From a virus (lineage: Duplodnaviria; Heunggongvirae; Uroviricota; Caudoviricetes), in the IMG/VR virus record IMGVR_UViG_3300045988_026856, positions 1 to 44,632 of that record: 44,632 nt of DNA. One strand, written 5' to 3'. Below the pieces are notes generated by a model, which was given only the letters and a program-made list of their open reading frames with translations, was not told the origin of the DNA and did not search any database. Shown here piece after piece: positions 1,169 to 36,905 of this stretch (its first letter is position 1; every line of letters begins with the position of its first letter). A program made the position numbers and the translations under genes.

Positions 1169-1233
1169 ACCAAGTAATAAGAATAAAGGCACAACCCTAC
1201 CTGAAGAATCACAACGGCAACGTAACTATTCTC

Positions 1234-1262
1234 TTGCGCACCCCAACATAATAGGTTACTAT
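1234..1262 (+). promoter_or_regulatory. early promoter TTGCGC-N17-TACTAT with AATAG-N4-CTATT inverted repeat over the -10
   Basis: Near-identical copy at 21655..21683 (minus) and related copy at 2714..2742. Confidence 0.45.
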
Positions 1263-1296
1263 TCACTTATCGGAACGAAACAGAGGAGTGAGGGTT

Positions 1297-2411: not shown

Positions 2412-2713
2412 TGTTCAATAGTTTGGGATTTTACTGAGTGACTTACGCTGCTACACAGCAGCGTATCATTTTTCTCATTTTTGTTCTATTTCACCAAACG
2501 CAACAATCGAAGCGACTATTGCAGGAGATGCAACAATGAAACTGAATGACATCGTGACCTGGACCGGTAGAAACGGAGAAAAGCGATTCGGGCTTATTGT
2601 TGAGTCAGACGGCAACAAGTACCGTGTTATGCGATGGCGTCAGTGAGCACGCCGCCCGAGGTACTACTGGATTCGTGGCGAACGATTATCTTTAAAACAC
2701 CAATAAAATTTAC

Positions 2714-2742
2714 TTGCACACTGGGATAGAATAGGCTACTAT
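2714..2742 (+). promoter_or_regulatory. promoter TTGCAC-N17-TACTAT (same family as 1234..1262)
   Basis: Hexamers plus AATAGGCTACTATT inverted repeat; about 30 nt upstream of ORF at 2773. Confidence 0.4.
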
Positions 2743-2772
2743 TCATTTACACAAACGAGAGGAGAGACAGAG

Positions 2773-2940
2773 ATGAAAGCAGTAACTAAAGATGAGTTTT
2801 TCAGCACAGTAGAAGGTCTTATGTATAACATGGTTATTAATGCGGGTACGCCAGAGTCTATCTACATAGATAGCGGTAATAATCTTGTCGCTAAAGCAAC
2901 ATGGAGTTACCCGGAAACCGTGTATGAGGTTGCGCAATGA
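2773..2940 (+). CDS. hypothetical small protein (55 aa)
   Basis: GAGAGGAGAG RBS; stop overlaps next start (ATGA). Confidence 0.4.
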   Translation: MKAVTKDEFFSTVEGLMYNMVINAGTPESIYIDSGNNLVAKATWSYPETVYEVAQ

Positions 2941-3164
2941 CCCCCGCAAAAGCACGTGCGCTGTTACGCCGCAATGGGATTCTTGATGAGGTGGACATCC
3001 TTGTAGAGAAATACGGCATACACATGATAGGTCGCCAGCCGAAAGGCGATATGCGTTGGATGGCGGGGGTCCCCGGTACGCCAGGCGTGTCATACGGCGA
3101 CACATTAACCCATGCGGTCCATACTTACATTATTGAGTCGGTACTAGGAGAAACCAATGAGTAA
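2937..3164 (+). CDS. hypothetical protein (75 aa)
   Basis: ORF track; translational coupling. Confidence 0.5.
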   Translation: MTPAKARALLRRNGILDEVDILVEKYGIHMIGRQPKGDMRWMAGVPGTPGVSYGDTLTHAVHTYIIESVLGETNE

Positions 3165-3609
3165 CAAAAACGAAGTATTCGAGTACCTGATTGGCCAGTT
3201 ACGGCAGCAGGTAAATTGCAACCAGTGTGAAGACCTGGCGCACGAGGTGCAGTCACTTAAGAATCAGTTACGTGATATGTCGGAGCTGGTGGATGAGCTA
3301 CTGGGGACAATAACGTTAATGAACGGGAAATCTAGTCGCCGTAAGGAAGATACTCAGTACAACGCCTGGAGGCCGCATTATGGTGCACGACAACCTGTGC
3401 CGGATGGGACTATGGTATTTATCCGGTATCGCAACGGGGAGGAGCCGAAACACAGTGTAGCAGCAGAAAAGCGGTCGTGGATTTGGGATGGAACATACGC
3501 AGACATAGTGGAATACAAGATTGACACACAGGAATGTGAACATGACTATCGTTTGGTTCTGTGGTGTAGCGACTTACAGCAGTGCTCTAAATGCGGGGTG
3601 ATCAAATGA
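3157..3609 (+). CDS. hypothetical protein (150 aa)
   Basis: ORF track; AGGAG RBS. Confidence 0.55.
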   Translation: MSNKNEVFEYLIGQLRQQVNCNQCEDLAHEVQSLKNQLRDMSELVDELLGTITLMNGKSSRRKEDTQYNAWRPHYGARQPVPDGTMVFIRYRNGEEPKHSVAAEKRSWIWDGTYADIVEYKIDTQECEHDYRLVLWCSDLQQCSKCGVIK

Positions 3610-3809
3610 CCAGCATATTATTTATCTGGGTACTGTCCGCGGGCCAGATGCAACTAGCGGCAGCAGAAACGTTTTATTCGATGGAGGCGTGCCAGTCCGC
3701 GGCACGCGCCGCAGAGAACGCGCACTTCCTGTTTCAGGGCGACAAGCCAAACGATTCAGAGGTACGCGCTATCTGCTCACCTAAGCGACTTGGTAAACAG
3801 GAGAAGTGA
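3606..3809 (+). CDS. hypothetical protein with N-terminal hydrophobic segment (67 aa)
   Basis: ORF track, start refined to ATG at 3606; 3' end lies in the 46-bp repeat. Confidence 0.5.
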   Translation: MTSILFIWVLSAGQMQLAAAETFYSMEACQSAARAAENAHFLFQGDKPNDSEVRAICSPKRLGKQEK

Positions 3810-3814
3810 TTATG
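3769..3814 (+). repeat. 46-bp direct repeat, copy A (CTATCTGCTCACCTAAGCGACTTGGTAAACAGGAGAAGTGATTATG)
   Basis: 44/46 identical to 4182..4227; spans a gene 3' end, the RBS and the next start codon. Confidence 0.8.
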
Positions 3815-4117
3815 AGCGCCGAAGCGATGAAGAAAAAGGTTTTGAACGCTTTGCAAGAAGCAGTGAACTGTGGTGCCATTAAAACATTCACAGAAAGGCA
3901 CGTCGGTGAAGTGACAGTTCACTGCTTTAATAGTAACAAAAACGGAATTGTGGTCATCATGCTTTTAAGGAATAGCGATGATACAGCCATCCTTTACGCT
4001 GGCGGATATGAGCTTATCGTTGATGATTTATTCATCACTTGCGCTGACGGCCTTGACCCAATGTTAACGTTCGAGCGGCGCGGCATCCGTGTTGCAACGT
4101 TTGGAGGGAAGTTATGA
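3812..4117 (+). CDS. hypothetical protein (101 aa)
   Basis: ORF track; start refined to ATG after AGGAGAAG RBS. Confidence 0.5.
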   Translation: MSAEAMKKKVLNALQEAVNCGAIKTFTERHVGEVTVHCFNSNKNGIVVIMLLRNSDDTAILYAGGYELIVDDLFITCADGLDPMLTFERRGIRVATFGGKL

Positions 4118-4209
4118 CATCAAATCTTAAAGCCCGTTTATTACCCATAAAGCCTCACGTGCTGTATAAGATGGACCAGCTCTATCTGCTCACCCAAGCG
4201 ACTTGGTAA
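4114..4209 (+). CDS. hypothetical small protein (31 aa)
   Basis: GGAGGG RBS; overlaps upstream stop; 3' end lies in repeat copy B. Confidence 0.25.
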   Translation: MTSNLKARLLPIKPHVLYKMDQLYLLTQATW

Positions 4210-4227
4210 ACAGGAGAAATGATTATG
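4182..4227 (+). repeat. 46-bp direct repeat, copy B
   Basis: See 3769..3814. Confidence 0.8.
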
Positions 4228-4407
4228 GTACAGAGATATACCTACGACCAGATATTCGGGTTTACTCCCGATGTTGAGGGCGTGTTAGTGCTTTACGAAG
4301 ATTACGCGAAACTCGAAGCTGAGTTACAGAAATACAAAGACCAGTTCCCGGATTACGTCGAGTGCGCGAACTGTGGGTCAGTTACGCATGTGGAAGGGGT
4401 GGAGTGA
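4225..4407 (+). CDS. hypothetical protein (60 aa); paralog of 4407..4601
   Basis: Shared MVQRY...DY.KLEA.L motif with the next gene. Confidence 0.45.
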   Translation: MVQRYTYDQIFGFTPDVEGVLVLYEDYAKLEAELQKYKDQFPDYVECANCGSVTHVEGVE

Positions 4408-4601
4408 TGGTGCAGAGATATGAGGTAAAAGCGTGGGGCCTGCCAGAGCCTGAGATGGCTGAGTACGCATATGGCGATTATGTAGAATACGACGCTTATC
4501 TGAAACTTGAAGCAAAGTTACGTGAATTCGCTGAACAGGTAATGTACGAACCTTGTTCGAAAGTTACAGAAGAAATGGCCCGCGAGATTCTCGGAATATG
4601 A
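4407..4601 (+). CDS. hypothetical protein (64 aa); paralog of 4225..4407
   Basis: Start refined to internal ATG with GGGGTGGAG RBS. Confidence 0.45.
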   Translation: MVQRYEVKAWGLPEPEMAEYAYGDYVEYDAYLKLEAKLREFAEQVMYEPCSKVTEEMAREILGI

Positions 4602-4891
4602 GCCTTGCAACTGACATCCTGAAACGAAGCGGCCTTGCGCCGCTGTCACCGAGAGCTAAAACACAGATATACAAGCGTCGCCGTAACGCGCTGTACCCGG
4701 AGATTCAGGCCAGACGTAAAGCGGTCCGCGCCTGTGGATTCCAGAACGGGAAGGCCGTGAATCTCGGTGAGTTTAAAACACAAGAACGCGCCGCAATCGC
4801 TAATCGACTATTTAATTACTGGAAATCGCTGGGGTACGATGATATTCCGACGAAACCCCAGAGACGACAATACATCTGGAGACACAAATAA
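4598..4891 (+). CDS. hypothetical basic protein (97 aa), possible AP2-like DNA-binding fold
   Basis: Start refined to ATG overlapping upstream stop; NGKAVNLGEFKTQERAAIA segment weakly AP2-like. Confidence 0.45.
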   Translation: MSLATDILKRSGLAPLSPRAKTQIYKRRRNALYPEIQARRKAVRACGFQNGKAVNLGEFKTQERAAIANRLFNYWKSLGYDDIPTKPQRRQYIWRHK

Positions 4892-4966
4892 ACAACTATT
4901 AGGATAATTCCTACCCGTGGTATCCTCCAGTTACTGCATACTTAATACGCACCTGGAGGATTCATC

Positions 4967-5275
4967 TTGGATAAATTTACTGAAACAGTGACAGGCTGGC
5001 TTCTCGCTGCCGCGCTAGCCGGAGGGGTCATCGGACTACGACAACATAAGTCCGTTATTTCTGGACCCATCGACGGCTTATTCTTTATTGTAACCGGCTT
5101 CGCTTGCGCCGTATTCGGTGCGCCTCTCGCTGCCCAATGGTTCGGCATTACCGGGGAGCGTGAAATCGCTGGTCTGGGTTTCATCATCGCTATTCTCTGG
5201 ATGCCTATCTATTCCCGCCTCTCCGGTATCGTCGCCGGGGAATACATCTCACGTCGAGGAGGCCCGGATGAATGA
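4967..5275 (+). CDS. holin (3 predicted TM segments, charged C-terminus)
   Basis: TTG start after GGAGGA RBS; three hydrophobic helices; directly upstream of endolysin. Confidence 0.6.
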   Translation: MDKFTETVTGWLLAAALAGGVIGLRQHKSVISGPIDGLFFIVTGFACAVFGAPLAAQWFGITGEREIAGLGFIIAILWMPIYSRLSGIVAGEYISRRGGPDE

Positions 5276-5540
5276 GTTATTCTGGTTCGGCGGTATGCTG
5301 GCAATCGGGGGTACATCGCTGTTTAATGTGTACCATCCCAGCGTTGATGACGGGTTATTCGGTCGGGTGCTCTATATCCTGACTGCTATCGTCTGCGCCG
5401 CCGGATGTATCCACCTGTTACAGGGCAGCGTGTCACCAACGCTGCCTGAGACATTAATCACATTAGTTGCGCTGCGCCAGATTCGTCAGGCGTGGCTGTC
5501 ATACGGAGGACATAAGCGTGTCTCGAAATATTTCAGATAA
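5268..5540 (+). CDS. second holin-like / antiholin-like membrane protein (2 TM, 90 aa)
   Basis: ATG after GAGGAGG RBS, overlaps holin stop; two hydrophobic helices. Confidence 0.5.
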   Translation: MNELFWFGGMLAIGGTSLFNVYHPSVDDGLFGRVLYILTAIVCAAGCIHLLQGSVSPTLPETLITLVALRQIRQAWLSYGGHKRVSKYFR

Positions 5541-9769: not shown

Positions 9770-11251
9770 ATGTTAACTATGAACGGTCAGAATCAGGGTG
9801 TTAAGACAAAACACCGGGAATGGCTGCATCACTTCAATAAATGGCAGAAGGTGCGCCACGCGCTGGAAGGCGACCTCATCCGTTACCTGCGCAATGTCGG
9901 GAAGAACGAGCCTGACCTGACCTATGCGGCACAGCGCCAGGAAGAATACGAGAACGGCGCTATCTGTTACAACTTCACTAAACGTACCCTGGCGGGGATG
10001 GTCGGCAGTGTCATGCGCAAAGACCCTGAACAGATTATCCCGCCTGAGCTTGAGTATCTGTTACGTAACGCCGACGGTTCCGGTGTCGGTCTGTGGCAGC
10101 ACGCGCAGGATACGCTGATGGAGATTGACTCGGTGGGGCGTGGCGGGTTGCTGGTGGACGCCCCAGAGACAGCCGCGGCGACGGCAGCCGAACAGAACGC
10201 TGGATTATTAAATCCGGTCATCGCATTCTATACCGCAGAGAACATCATCAACTGGCGACTGACTCGCGTCGGTTCAGTGAACCGCGTAACGATGGTCGTG
10301 CTGCGTGAGGTATGGGAATACTCTGAACCGGGAGCAGAGTTCGAAACAAAGTTCGGTGAGCAGTACCGTGTTCTCGATTTGATTGACGGGCGCTACCGCC
10401 AGCGCATTTACCGCTTCGATTCCGAAGGTGGCGCTCAGGGTGACGTAATCGAAATCTTCCCGGAACTCGGTGAACAGTTACGCGGCAAAATCCCGTTCAC
10501 GTTCATCGGGGCAAGCAACAACGACGCGACCATAGATGACGCGCCTTTGCTGCCGTTAGCCGAGCTTAATATCGGGCATTTCCGTAACAGCGCGGACAAT
10601 GAGGAATCCAGCTTCGTTGTAGGGCAGCCTACTCTGTTCATTGCACCTGGTGAGAACATGAGCATGGAGCAGTGGAAGGAAGCCAACCCTCACGGCGTGC
10701 ACATGGGGTCACGTTCAGGTCATAACATTGGTTACGGTGGCAATGCATTTCTTGTTCAGGCAGGAGAGAACAACCTCGCCAAACAGAATATGCTGGATAA
10801 AGAGAATCAGGCCATTCAGATTGGCGCGCAGCTTATCACCCCGACGCAGCAAATCACCGCCGAATCCGCCCGCCTGCAACGTGGCGCTGATACGTCTGTT
10901 ATGGCGACGATTGCACGGAACGTAAGCATGGCGTATACCGATGCGTTGCGCTGGGTAGCTGCGATGCTTGGGCTACGTGAAGGCACAGAGATTGAGTTCA
11001 AACTTAACATGGAATTCTTCCTGCAGCCGATGACAGCGCAGGACCGCGCACAGTGGATGGCGGATATTAACGCAGGCCTGTTACCGGCGACCGCTTACTA
11101 CGCCGCGTTGCGTAAGGCCGGTGTAACCGACTGGACAGACGAGGATATTCAGAACGCTATTGAGGACGCACCGCTGCCGTTGGGTGCGGTTGCTCAGGTA
11201 GCAGGAGAAATTCCGCAGTCCGCGCAGCAACAAGACGCCATTCAGCAGTAA
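9770..11251 (+). CDS. portal protein
   Basis: 493 aa, directly after the terminase. Confidence 0.7.
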   Translation: MLTMNGQNQGVKTKHREWLHHFNKWQKVRHALEGDLIRYLRNVGKNEPDLTYAAQRQEEYENGAICYNFTKRTLAGMVGSVMRKDPEQIIPPELEYLLRNADGSGVGLWQHAQDTLMEIDSVGRGGLLVDAPETAAATAAEQNAGLLNPVIAFYTAENIINWRLTRVGSVNRVTMVVLREVWEYSEPGAEFETKFGEQYRVLDLIDGRYRQRIYRFDSEGGAQGDVIEIFPELGEQLRGKIPFTFIGASNNDATIDDAPLLPLAELNIGHFRNSADNEESSFVVGQPTLFIAPGENMSMEQWKEANPHGVHMGSRSGHNIGYGGNAFLVQAGENNLAKQNMLDKENQAIQIGAQLITPTQQITAESARLQRGADTSVMATIARNVSMAYTDALRWVAAMLGLREGTEIEFKLNMEFFLQPMTAQDRAQWMADINAGLLPATAYYAALRKAGVTDWTDEDIQNAIEDAPLPLGAVAQVAGEIPQSAQQQDAIQQ

Positions 11252-21613: not shown

Positions 21614-21654
21614 GGGGTAGCTCCTGTTTGAGTTAACATTGTTGGTGTAAGTGA

Positions 21655-21683
21655 ATAGTATCCTATTATGTTGGGGTGTGCAA
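21655..21683 (-). promoter_or_regulatory. promoter TTGCAC-N17-TACTAT driving the minus-strand insert; near-identical to 1234..1262
   Basis: About 35-bp element shared with the early promoter at 1234..1262. Confidence 0.45.
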
Positions 21684-21790
21684 GTAATGTGTTAGAATTA
21701 TTTTGCGCCTAGTGTCGCACACGAAAAGCGGGTGGTTCCCGTCTGGCGCATTAACCTTAACCAGTAACCTCTTAACCAAAGGATTAAAGA

Positions 21791-36389: not shown

Positions 36390-36905
36390 CTAACCTCCGT
36401 GATTCTCATGAAAGCCGTAGCGAACAATCGCAGATTTCCGTGCACAAGCCGCGTCAAATATATTGTCATGATGCCCCAGGAATATAAGTTTACCACCAAC
36501 AAATATACATGCTTTCCATTTAGCCGCTCGTGCGTTCCAGTGCACACCTGTGATACCTGACTTGTTATCTTTTCTCCGAGATGCGTTTCTGTTGTTATCA
36601 GTACGGGATACTTTACGAAGGTTGCATGCACGATTATCATCCAGGATGTGATTTATATGGTCTACTTCATCGTCAGGCCCTAAACGGTCATTGTTATGCA
36701 TCTCCCACGCGATGCGATTAGCCCTGTAACTAACCCCTCTGACGACGATACAGATGTAGCCCCTCTTACTTGGGCTACCGGCTTCGTCTCCGGCGTTTAT
36801 ACTGTGCCTCGGGGAATACTTCCATCGTATCTTCCCCGTGTCAGGTTCGTAGTAGAAATGGTCATGCCAATTAATTAAATCTCTCATAAACCACCCCATC
36901 ATCAT
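36390..36905 (-). CDS. HNH homing endonuclease with AP2-like DNA-binding domain
   Basis: VDHINHILDDNRACNLRKVSRTDNN HNH motif; GITGVHWNARAAKWKA...GKLIFLG AP2-like. Confidence 0.8.
   Translation of the reverse strand: MMMGWFMRDLINWHDHFYYEPDTGKIRWKYSPRHSINAGDEAGSPSKRGYICIVVRGVSYRANRIAWEMHNNDRLGPDDEVDHINHILDDNRACNLRKVSRTDNNRNASRRKDNKSGITGVHWNARAAKWKACIFVGGKLIFLGHHDNIFDAACARKSAIVRYGFHENHGG

What the first reader, a model, noticed from the sequence alone, without database searches (positions are those of the whole stretch)
3769..4227. 46-bp near-perfect direct repeat spanning two gene junctions in the early region
Copies at 3769..3814 and 4182..4227 are 44/46 identical and each covers a gene 3' end (in different reading frames), the RBS and the next ATG. 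It may be a module-boundary sequence promoting recombination and gene shuffling, or a conserved translational operator. Recombination between the copies would delete the genes at 3812..4209.
Basis: seen in the sequence. Interest (0 to 1): 0.4.

Follow-up and report, generated by a model that had tools for sequence, protein, structure and literature searches.

The report
Duplicated gene junction flanking a captured gene
The 46-49 bp repeat is a gene junction of a Kagunavirus-type coliphage that was doubled when a small gene from an unrelated Wifcevirus-type phage was spliced in, and its second copy has since let that gene be recombined in front of different neighbours; this is a clean example of known phage mosaicism, not a new kind of element.

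Summary
The repeat is real: 3766-3814 vs 4179-4227, 46/49 identical, none expected by chance. The unit is the last ~15 codons of a conserved 67-aa gene ("A"), plus a Shine-Dalgarno sequence and the next ATG. It occurs once per genome in about 320 Guernseyvirinae phage records, at the left edge of a hypervariable gene slot. It is doubled only in genomes carrying a foreign insert. That insert is ~90% identical to Wifcevirus myophage DNA: a complete 101-aa gene X plus the first 23 codons of the next gene.

Both joints are resolved. The left joint is at TATG of the stop/start overlap. The right joint is at an 8-nt microhomology, GTA[A/C]GCGC. They are offset by 45-53 nt on the recipient map, which produces the duplication. 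It leaves gene A intact and gives both X and the downstream gene a ribosome-binding site.

About 40 metagenome contigs share these joints, so this was one old event. X is under purifying selection, the truncated stub decays, and copy 2 stays almost invariant. The cassette now precedes at least four different downstream modules, and the copy-2 allele matches the incoming module, so crossovers occur inside the unit.

No operator-like RNA structure, promoter, terminator or transposase was found. Verdict: an ordinary mechanism, unusually well documented.

The parts
3606..3809 (+). Gene A, 67 aa (phrog_3766, unknown function). It is the conserved left anchor of the variable slot, and its last ~15 codons form the repeat unit.
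   Evidence: 86-100% aa identity in 39 IMG/VR relatives. Third codon positions vary, so the protein is under purifying selection.
3766..3814 (+). Repeat copy 1: tail of gene A, AGGAG (3800-3804), stop TGA (3807-3809) and ATG (3812-3814), which now starts gene X.
   Evidence: The same sequence is single-copy in 322 phage records.
3762..3769 (+). GTACGCGC: the recipient side of the microhomology used for the right-hand joint, and the left limit of the duplicated segment.
   Evidence: L145/L146 read ...GGCAAGCGC|TATCTGC; WFH reads ...AGTAAGCGC|ACCTGG. The same ACGCGC hexamer is the breakpoint of an internal gene A deletion in L102.
3811..3814 (+). Left joint: TATG, shared by the Kagunavirus junction (GTGATTATG) and the Wifcevirus gene start (GTGAGCTATG).
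   Evidence: Identical in all X-bearing variants.
3812..4117 (+). Gene X, 101 aa, acquired from a Wifcevirus-type phage (homologue of WFH_00091). Function unknown; under purifying selection.
   Evidence: about 90% nt identity to WFH/WFC; 11 clusters, the others on ~68 kb contigs; pN/pS 0.16-0.54; pLDDT 77, no characterised structural relative. GC 0.443 vs 0.49-0.50 in the flanks.
4114..4209 (+). 31-aa chimeric stub ORF: the first 23 codons of the Wifcevirus gene Y (WFH_00092 homologue) running out of frame into copy 2 and stopping at TAA 4207-4209. It is a decaying by-product of the insertion.
   Evidence: 16/69 differences window vs L145; pN/pS 0.4 to above 1.
4175..4182 (+). Right joint: the eroded microhomology (ACCAGCTC in the window; GCAAGCGC in L145/L146; GTAAGCGC in Wifcevirus).
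   Evidence: series L145 -> L149 -> L148 -> window.
4179..4227 (+). Repeat copy 2: duplicated gene A tail (non-coding here except for the end of the stub), AGGAG (4213-4217) and the ATG of the next gene. It acts as a homology arm for recombination with other Guernseyvirinae.
   Evidence: 0-2 differences per 36 nt among lineages whose X differs at pS 0.18-0.32. Its allele and spacer co-vary with the downstream module.
4225..4407 (+). Slot gene B1, 60 aa (phrog_29624, 'MVQRY...' family). It follows gene A directly in empty-site genomes.
4407..4601 (+). Slot gene B2, 64 aa, a paralogue of B1 that begins with the same ATGGTNCAGAGATAT.
   Evidence: (family D4).
4598..4891 (+). Conserved 97-aa gene (phrog_9632): the right anchor of the variable slot.
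   Evidence: the slot between gene A and this gene is -1 to 514 bp in 47 relatives and 788 bp here.

Best explanation
The repeat is a duplicated gene junction left by the capture of a foreign gene.

Origin. An ancestor of this Kagunavirus-type phage had gene A followed directly by a slot gene, with the ribosome-binding site of the slot gene lying inside the last codons of A. During a mixed infection, about 365 bp from a Wifcevirus-type myophage (gene X plus the first 23 codons of the next gene) was joined in by two non-homologous, microhomology-guided joints. One joint was at TATG of the start codon. The other was at GTA[A/C]GCGC, 45-53 nt further upstream on the recipient map. Because the second joint lies to the left of the first, that stretch is present on both sides of the insert.

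Present function. The duplication is what makes the recombinant viable. Gene A keeps its own end and stop codon. X is placed at the recipient's Shine-Dalgarno sequence with 7-nt spacing. The downstream gene keeps its native initiation region. The chain of stop/start-coupled small genes is preserved, apart from a 15-nt gap after the stub's stop codon.

Afterlife. Gene A with copy 1 on the left, and copy 2 on the right, match the single junction of every other Guernseyvirinae genome. Ordinary homologous recombination has therefore repeatedly exchanged what lies beside the cassette. Recombination between the two copies in one genome would delete X precisely.

Shown: the foreign origin, both joints, a single ancestral event, strict linkage of the doubled state to X, purifying selection on X, decay of the stub, conservation of copy 2, and several downstream modules with matching unit alleles. 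Inferred: the co-infection setting, the enzymology, the translational roles, and that copy 2 is kept uniform by recombination as opposed to selection.
For: The unit is single-copy in about 320 phage records, 32 IMG/VR loci and 31 metagenome loci. Among all fetched loci it is doubled only where X is present: 10 of 10 two-copy loci carry X against 80 of 80 single-copy loci, and the later X-bearing loci all show a second copy, though L143's copy 1 is cut to about 17 nt.

The interior matches only 66-72 kb Wifcevirus-type records, about 90% identical over window 3821-4172. The synteny of X and its neighbour gene Y is conserved there, and Y is truncated in the window, which gives the direction of transfer. 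The Wifcevirus loci examined show no trace of the unit next to X.

The left joint is TATG. The right joint is resolved by the less eroded relatives L145/L146: AAGCGC|TATCTGC. All five X protein variants, on about 40 contigs, share both joints.

X has pN/pS 0.16-0.54. The stub differs at 16/69 sites between the window and L145, while copy 2 differs at 0/36 although pS in X is 0.22, giving 0.777^36 of about 1e-4.

Four distinct modules follow copy 2 (60-aa B1 with a 75-aa relative, plus 61-, 81- and 88-aa genes). Each also sits directly behind gene A in X-less genomes, with the same unit allele and spacer.

The window's gene A body differs from its X-bearing siblings at 6-10 sites in 3599-3755 and at none from 3756 to 4385. 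The insert's GC is 0.443 against 0.49-0.50 in the flanks. Kagunavirus and Wifcevirus phages both depend on O-antigen and were isolated on the same engineered E. coli host (PMC11990801). The phage encodes a PD-(D/E)XK/DUF2800 nuclease and an Enc34-type ssDNA-binding protein.
Against: No sampled Wifcevirus is the actual donor: the best match is about 90% identical, and pS is 0.3-0.5 against WFH. The microhomologies are therefore read from relatives and not from the true parents.

The Kagunavirus-borne X variants are themselves deeply diverged, and the X and stub phylogenies disagree. The history therefore includes later exchanges that I cannot order.

The test of variable columns in copy 2 against the stub is only modest: 2-4 of 36 vs 17 of 69, Fisher p 0.017-0.13. 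Conservation of copy 2 could reflect selection on translation initiation instead of recombinational homogenisation.

Only one exchange event, not several, ends at the left edge of copy 1. No deletion product or circle was observed. All X-bearing genomes are metagenome assemblies and none is a cultured isolate.
Confidence: 0.8

Rival explanations
1. The unit is a dedicated boundary or linker sequence, and X entered by homologous recombination. In this view the cassette was already flanked by two units in some unsampled donor and was swapped in like any other slot module, so the repeat reflects a recombination signal and not an insertion scar.
For: The unit sits exactly at the edge of a hypervariable slot. 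It survives other rearrangements (L027/L087 fusion; L102 deletion). Crossovers do map inside it. Its codons 60-66 show slightly raised synonymous conservation, 0.95-1.00 against a gene-wide 0.86.
Against: Copy 2 abuts a truncated Wifcevirus gene at a microhomology, which is an illegitimate joint. The Wifcevirus loci lack the unit. None of the other slot modules is flanked by two units: 122 X-less loci are all single-copy. So normal module exchange here uses gene A and the 97-aa gene as arms, not paired units.
Confidence: 0.1
2. The unit is a translational operator or regulatory RNA element, and it is present twice because both X and the downstream gene need the same post-transcriptional control.
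For: Each copy carries AGGAG 7 nt before an ATG. A 5-bp hairpin CCAAG/CTTGG can form. Copy 2 is conserved although it is not coding for gene A there.
Against: Folding energies are indistinguishable from shuffles, with z from +0.7 to -0.8. The stem does not vary, so there is no covariation evidence. The initiation-region part occurs nowhere else in the 44.6 kb window. The spacer before the ATG varies freely among relatives (GTGATT, ATAAC, ATAATT, ATGATT). Conservation of copy 1 is explained by gene A coding plus the Shine-Dalgarno sequence.
Confidence: 0.05
3. The repeat is a target-site duplication made by a mobile element (transposon, homing-endonuclease cassette or site-specific integration), or else an assembly artefact.
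For: An insert bracketed by direct repeats superficially resembles a target-site duplication. HNH endonuclease genes are common in this phage group.
Against: The duplication is 45-53 nt, far longer than transposase target-site duplications. There are no terminal inverted repeats. No transposase, integrase or endonuclease domain was found in X or the stub. The insert ends inside a gene of the donor. The structure recurs in at least 23 contigs from independent samples and assemblers.
Confidence: 0.02

Closest known systems
Mycobacteriophage Island3 genes 67/68 versus Brujita (Pope et al. 2011, PMC3029335; read)
   Same: One extra small gene is bracketed by a direct repeat of about 50-60 bp made of the 3' end of the upstream gene. 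A close relative has a single recombinant copy. [quoted passage not shown]
   Different: There the partner genome and the direction (insertion or deletion) were unknown, and the repeat was in frame in both genes. Here the donor genus is identified, both joints are resolved to microhomologies, copy 2 is out of frame, and the later spread to several neighbouring modules is documented.
Short conserved boundary (linker) sequences of lambdoid phages, and the illegitimate-recombination model of mosaicism (as summarised in PMC3029335 and PMC2327257)
   Same: A short sequence at a gene boundary is conserved between otherwise different modules and serves as a crossover site. Novel joints form at gene boundaries by non-homologous events and are filtered by selection.
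   Different: This is a virulent siphophage group, not temperate lambdoids. The 'boundary' is simply the tail of a conserved gene plus a ribosome-binding site. Both mechanisms are visible at one locus.
PeSL cassettes of T4-type phages (Arbiol et al. 2010, PMC2839356)
   Same: Repeated short sequences flank non-essential ORFan genes in a hyperplastic region, and recombination between them shuffles or deletes genes. A circle-excision route is conceivable here too.
   Different: PeSLs are strong sigma-70 promoters plus terminator stem-loops present in many copies. This unit has neither and occurs once per genome, or twice only with X.
Morons of lambdoid and other phages (from general knowledge of Juhala/Hendrix et al. 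2000; not read here)
   Same: An extra gene of foreign composition is inserted between two genes that are adjacent in relatives.
   Different: Morons carry their own promoter and terminator. X has none and is plugged into the recipient's translationally coupled operon using a duplicated host ribosome-binding site.

Membership tests
Conserved boundary sequence used for homologous module exchange | A short sequence at a gene or module boundary, conserved across genomes whose adjacent modules differ | tested here: met
   The unit is 90-100% identical in 322 records. At least 10 different gene starts follow it. Slot length ranges from -1 to 514 bp in 47 relatives.
Conserved boundary sequence used for homologous module exchange | Recombinant joints map inside the sequence | tested here: met
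   Copy 2 keeps the ancestral joint on its left (…GC[G/T]C|TATC…), while its polymorphic sites and spacer match those of X-less genomes carrying the same downstream module: L145 = L128, L143 = L042/L017, L148 = L068. This is a comparative inference, not an experimental result.
Conserved boundary sequence used for homologous module exchange | Conservation beyond what coding and translation signals explain (a dedicated signal) | tested here: inconclusive
   Third-position conservation is 0.93 in the tail against 0.86 elsewhere in gene A. Copy 2 differs at 0-2 of 36 sites despite pS 0.18-0.32 in X, but recombinational homogenisation explains this equally well.
Illegitimate (microhomology-mediated) gene acquisition | Donor and recipient share no extended homology at the joints, only a few bases | tested here: met
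   The left joint shares TATG. The right joint shares GTA[A/C]GCGC. The flanks are otherwise unrelated.
Moron | Own promoter and terminator flanking the inserted gene | tested here: not met
   No promoter-like or terminator-like site lies between 3766 and 4227.
Moron | An extra gene between genes that are adjacent in relatives, with deviant base composition | tested here: met
   Gene A and B1 are adjacent in L097, L101, L103 and L050. GC is 0.443 in the insert against 0.49-0.50 in the flanks.
PeSL-type regulatory cassette | The repeat contains a sigma-70-like promoter and a terminator stem-loop, and is multi-copy in hyperplastic regions | tested here: not met
   Searches find no significant structure and no promoter or terminator. 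There are only two copies in the window.
Transposon or insertion-sequence target-site duplication | Short (about 2-14 bp) duplication, terminal inverted repeats, transposase | tested here: not met
   The duplication is 45-53 nt. There is no inverted repeat at the insert ends. No transposase domain was found.
Homing endonuclease or intron-type mobile gene | An endonuclease gene lies within the insert | tested here: not met
   X has no Pfam or PHROG family and no fold match to nucleases. The stub is a 31-aa remnant.
Translational operator or cis-regulatory RNA | A stable, conserved secondary structure with covariation | tested here: not met
   z-scores range from +0.7 to -0.8. The stem positions do not vary among relatives, so covariation gives no support.

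The most novel reading that the evidence does not exclude
By acquiring a second copy of a junction that is conserved in more than 300 Guernseyvirinae genomes, gene X may have become a self-contained, homology-driven mobile cassette. Recombination between the copies would release a 413-bp circle (X + stub + one unit). That circle could re-insert at the single unit of any related phage and regenerate the same structure. This would be a promoter-less analogue of T4-type PeSL mini-circles, with the unit maintained partly because it promotes such transfer.
Probability: 0.1. Interest if true: 0.6.

Novelty: new member of a known kind. Interest (0 to 1): 0.4.

Why it matters
Phage mosaicism is usually explained by two ideas that are seldom seen together: rare illegitimate joints that create new gene combinations, and homologous exchange at conserved flanks that spreads them. 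At this locus both steps can be read at nucleotide resolution, between two virulent coliphage genera of different morphotype (a Wifcevirus-type myophage as donor and a Kagunavirus-type siphophage as recipient). It also shows why a junction duplication is the viable outcome when genes are packed so tightly that one gene's ribosome-binding site lies inside the previous gene. Practically, it marks a permissive insertion site with a ready-made expression context in small phages that are being considered for synthetic-biology and therapy work. It also flags a selected 101-aa protein of unknown function that has been retained in two phage genera.

Tried and rejected
1. I scanned IMG/VR for the left joint, and JGI metagenomes and GTDB genomes for the window's right joint. 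All gave zero hits. The X-bearing genomes were only reachable through exact-protein look-ups.

2. I first read window 4173-4181 (GGACCAGCT) as filler DNA, or as a degenerate leftward extension of the repeat with a 2-nt indel (9 of 12 matches). I rejected this once L145/L146 showed the uneroded joint.

3. I first read the mismatch pattern as three independent exchanges ending at the unit. Haplotype analysis shows only one.

4. RNA structure or operator: folding is not significant.

5. Promoter or terminator in the unit: none found.

6. Function of X: Pfam and PHROGs gave nothing. The AlphaFold model has pLDDT 77. There was no PDB match (best E 0.47). The BFVD matches are only to uncharacterised phage proteins.

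7. The perfect 14-nt inverted repeat inside X is not conserved in more distant homologues.

8. L112, an X-less genome with the copy-2 spacer allele, was examined as a possible deletion product. It carries a different downstream gene, so it only shows that the allele is a standing polymorphism.

9. I did not identify the four INPHARED records that have two places matching the junction query.

Full report
**1.

The repeat finder gives one strong direct-repeat family in 2500-5500: 3766-3814 and 4179-4227, 49 nt, 46/49 identical, 413 nt apart.

Copy 1 contains the in-frame end of a 67-aa gene (gene A, 3606-3809), AGGAG at 3800-3804, the stop TGA at 3807-3809 and an ATG at 3812. Copy 2 contains the end of a 31-aa ORF (4114-4209) in another frame, AGGAG at 4213-4217 and an ATG at 4225.

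**2. Which genome this is, and what the unit is in relatives**

The region matches Kagunavirus/Jerseyvirus (Guernseyvirinae) phages in a patchy, mosaic way. There are 342 matching records, and none covers 80% of a 2 kb query.

The 61-nt junction alone is present at 90-100% identity in 322 records but at only 326 places, so it is essentially single-copy. It is also single-copy in 32 IMG/VR loci and 31 metagenome loci.

Upstream of it, the end of gene A (phrog_3766, unknown function) is conserved everywhere. Downstream, at least ten different gene starts follow.

In 47 loci fetched through the gene A protein, independently of the unit, the distance from gene A to the next conserved gene (97 aa, phrog_9632) ranges from -1 to 514 bp. 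It is 788 bp in the window. The unit is therefore the left edge of a hypervariable slot that holds zero to two small 'MVQRY...' genes.

**3. The DNA between the copies is foreign**

Window 3815-4181 has no match in any Guernseyvirinae record. It matches 29 records of 66-72 kb, all Wifcevirus-type myophages (WFH, WFC, CWP003 and others), at about 90% identity over 3821-4172.

Alignment shows that the donor-type DNA runs from the ATG region at 3811 to about 4172-4182. It comprises the whole of a 101-aa gene (X, homologue of WFH_00091) and the first 23 codons of the next gene (Y, WFH_00092).

The X-Y arrangement is conserved in all eight Wifcevirus-type loci examined. Y is truncated in the window, so the transfer went from a Wifcevirus-type genome into a Kagunavirus-type genome. 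The insert's GC content (0.443) is nearer the WFH locus (0.467) than its flanks (0.49-0.50).

Both genera depend on O-antigen and were isolated on the same engineered E. coli K-12 host (PMC11990801). Co-infection is therefore plausible.

**4. The joints**

Left joint: the recipient reads GGAGAAGTGATTATG|GTACAG and the donor reads AGAGGGTGAGCTATG|AGTACAG. The window switches within the shared TATG.

Right joint: in the window the donor match seems to stop at TATAAGAT (4172), followed by nine odd bases. Less eroded relatives settle this. L145/L146 read ...AAGATTGGCAAGCGC|TATCTGCTCACC. Wifcevirus reads ...AAGATTAGTAAGCGC|ACCTGG. Gene A reads ...GAGGTACGCGC|TATCTGC.

The crossover was therefore inside an 8-nt microhomology, GTA[A/C]GCGC. 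The window's GGACCAGCT is simply decayed stub sequence, following the series L145, L149, L148, window.

On the recipient map the right joint (3762-3769) lies 45-53 nt to the left of the left joint (3811-3814). That offset is why this segment is duplicated.

**5. One old event, widely inherited**

The exact X protein is on at least 23 contigs of 42.7-44.7 kb from several ENA/Logan/JGI samples and assemblers. All have the order A, X, stub, 60-aa, 64-aa, 97-aa, and both repeat copies are identical.

Cluster look-ups revealed four more X variants on Kagunavirus-size contigs (P0012, P0013, P0014, P0024), for about 40 contigs in all. All share the same left and right joints.

No cultured isolate in the phage collection has the cassette. 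Among all loci fetched, the two-copy state occurs only with X. The exception in form is L143, where copy 1 has been cut to about 17 nt by a further upstream fusion.

**6. What has happened since the insertion**

X is under purifying selection among its Kagunavirus-borne variants (pN/pS 0.16-0.54) with substantial synonymous divergence (pS 0.18-0.32). The stub evolves loosely, with pN/pS from 0.4 to above 1.

Between the window and L145, X differs at 25/300 sites, the stub at 16/69 and copy 2 at 0/36. At pS = 0.22 the chance of 0/36 is about 1e-4. The cruder comparison of variable columns gives 2-4 of 36 against 17 of 69, p = 0.017-0.13.

Copy 2 is followed by four distinct modules: 60-aa B1 (with a 75-aa relative), a 61-aa MVQRYDVWC gene, an 81-aa MTIRTFDA gene and an 88-aa MVVRKGFYEDG gene. 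Each also occurs directly behind gene A in X-less genomes. In each case the polymorphic sites and spacer of copy 2 match those of the X-less genome carrying that module, while the ancestral joint on the left of copy 2 is retained. This places crossovers inside the 45-nt unit.

On the other side, X-bearing genomes carry at least four gene A haplotypes. The window's own allele patch (3663-3755) ends exactly where the invariant tail begins. That is one event, not several.

The three differences between the window's two copies are of two kinds. Two are standing population polymorphisms: CCT/CCC, and the GAAG/GAAA spacer allele, which is also seen in X-less L112. The third, GCGC to GCTC, is erosion of the joint.

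**7. How it most likely works now**

Each copy supplies AGGAG 7 nt upstream of an ATG.

The genes are chained by stop/start overlaps (read):
- upstream 150-aa gene to A: ATGA
- A to X: TGAttATG
- X to stub: ATGA
- stub to B1: TAA, then 15 nt, then ATG
- B1 to B2: TGATG
- B2 to the 97-aa gene: ATGA

The duplication was therefore the arrangement that left gene A intact and gave both X and B1 an initiation region. That they are actually used in this way is inferred.

There is no significant RNA structure (z from +0.7 to -0.8). There is no promoter or terminator in the unit. The initiation-region part occurs nowhere else in the window. Extra synonymous conservation in the tail of gene A is modest: 0.93 against 0.86, reaching 0.95-1.00 over the seven codons that include the Shine-Dalgarno sequence.

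The phage encodes a PD-(D/E)XK/DUF2800 nuclease and an Enc34-type ssDNA-binding protein, so recombination functions are at hand. Their role here is untested.

**8. Comparison with what is known**

- The nearest described case is mycobacteriophage Island3. Genes 67 and 68 share about 60 bp at their 3' ends around a single extra gene, and Brujita has one recombinant copy (PMC3029335).
- Conceptually the locus combines the 'short conserved boundary sequence' model and the 'illegitimate recombination plus selection' model of mosaicism (PMC3029335; PMC2327257).
- It resembles PeSL-flanked cassettes of T4-type phages in effect (PMC2839356) but fails their defining features (promoter, terminator, multi-copy).
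- It resembles a moron in being a foreign extra gene, but it lacks its own transcription signals.
- Transposon, homing-endonuclease and assembly-artefact explanations fail on direct tests.

**9. Verdict**

The origin, however, is a microhomology-mediated capture of a Wifcevirus gene, and the 'operator' idea is not supported.

The mechanism is of a known kind. The value lies in how completely it can be read: donor genus, both joints, selection on the captured gene, decay of the by-product, and reuse of the duplicated junction as a homology arm.

Interest is moderate (0.4). The most novel reading still open is a homology-driven mobile cassette or mini-circle. I give it about 10%. Every cassette examined carries the same joints, which is compatible with that reading as well as with simple flank exchange, and no circle or deletion product has been seen.

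Noticed in passing
window 4225-4239 and 4407-4421; also L001-L034 junctions: The slot genes form a diversifying 'MVQRY' family. Very different small genes (at least 8 variants) all begin with nearly the same 14-15 nt (ATGGTNCAGAGATA). This extends the conserved junction into the first five codons and gives a second short direct repeat in the window (14/15).
   Followed up: partly
window 1233-1269 (+), 2712-2748 (+), 21648-21684 (-): A conserved ~37-nt motif, CTTGCRCAC...TAGG.TACTATTCA.TTA, reads as TTGCAC-N17-TACTAT and lies upstream of gene clusters. It is probably the phage's own promoter type. It is too weak for the consensus scan but recurs three times, and also in relatives (L027, L089). 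The copy at about 2712 would drive the operon that contains the repeat.
   Followed up: partly
L027/L087 (IMGVR_UViG_3300045988_002471) 10685-11032, and L143 1420-1823: In these relatives the homologue of the window's 150-aa gene (3157-3609) is fused in frame to the last 17 codons of gene A (L027), or to only the last ~17 nt of the unit (L143). Gene A is therefore dispensable, while the ribosome-binding part of its tail is always kept.
   Followed up: partly
L102 (ERZ28624912 scaffold_112), about 2400-2500; window equivalents 3704-3709 and 3764-3769: An internal 60-nt deletion of gene A lies between two ACGCGC hexamers. The right-hand hexamer is the same one used as microhomology in the Wifcevirus insertion, so this GCGC-rich spot is a recurrent breakpoint.
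   Followed up: no
window 3858-3871 / 3914-3927: A perfect 14-nt inverted repeat with a 42-nt loop lies inside the captured gene X. It has 12 of 14 pairs in WFH-type donors (one compensatory A-T to C-G change) but only 6-9 of 14 in more distant homologues, so it is probably not a conserved structure.
   Followed up: yes
(phage collection): Four of the 322 phage records have two places matching the junction query. I could not identify them. They might be independent duplications of the same unit around other inserts.
   Followed up: no
window 36390-36905 (-); L101, L102, L103, L139, L141: HNH endonuclease genes (HNH_3) are scattered at different positions in this phage group: next to the DNA polymerase A gene in the window, and next to the lysozyme gene or just upstream of gene A in relatives. 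This is a second, independent source of gene-content variation near the slot.
   Followed up: no
L139-L149, between X and the stub: Four of the five Kagunavirus-borne X variants have a 5-6 nt insertion that separates the X stop from the stub ATG (GGGAAGTGAATATTATG against GGGAAGTTATGA in the window, in P0014 and in Wifcevirus). The X and stub phylogenies also disagree. This suggests recombination within the cassette, or renewed exchange with Wifcevirus alleles.
   Followed up: partly
fold search of X (BFVD): The X model matches an uncharacterised 166-aa protein of Wifcevirus FEC19 (TM 0.72, 20% identity) and a 99-aa protein of Dompiswa phage TSP7_1 (TM 0.68). X may therefore belong to a wider, unannotated fold family of small phage proteins.
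   Followed up: no
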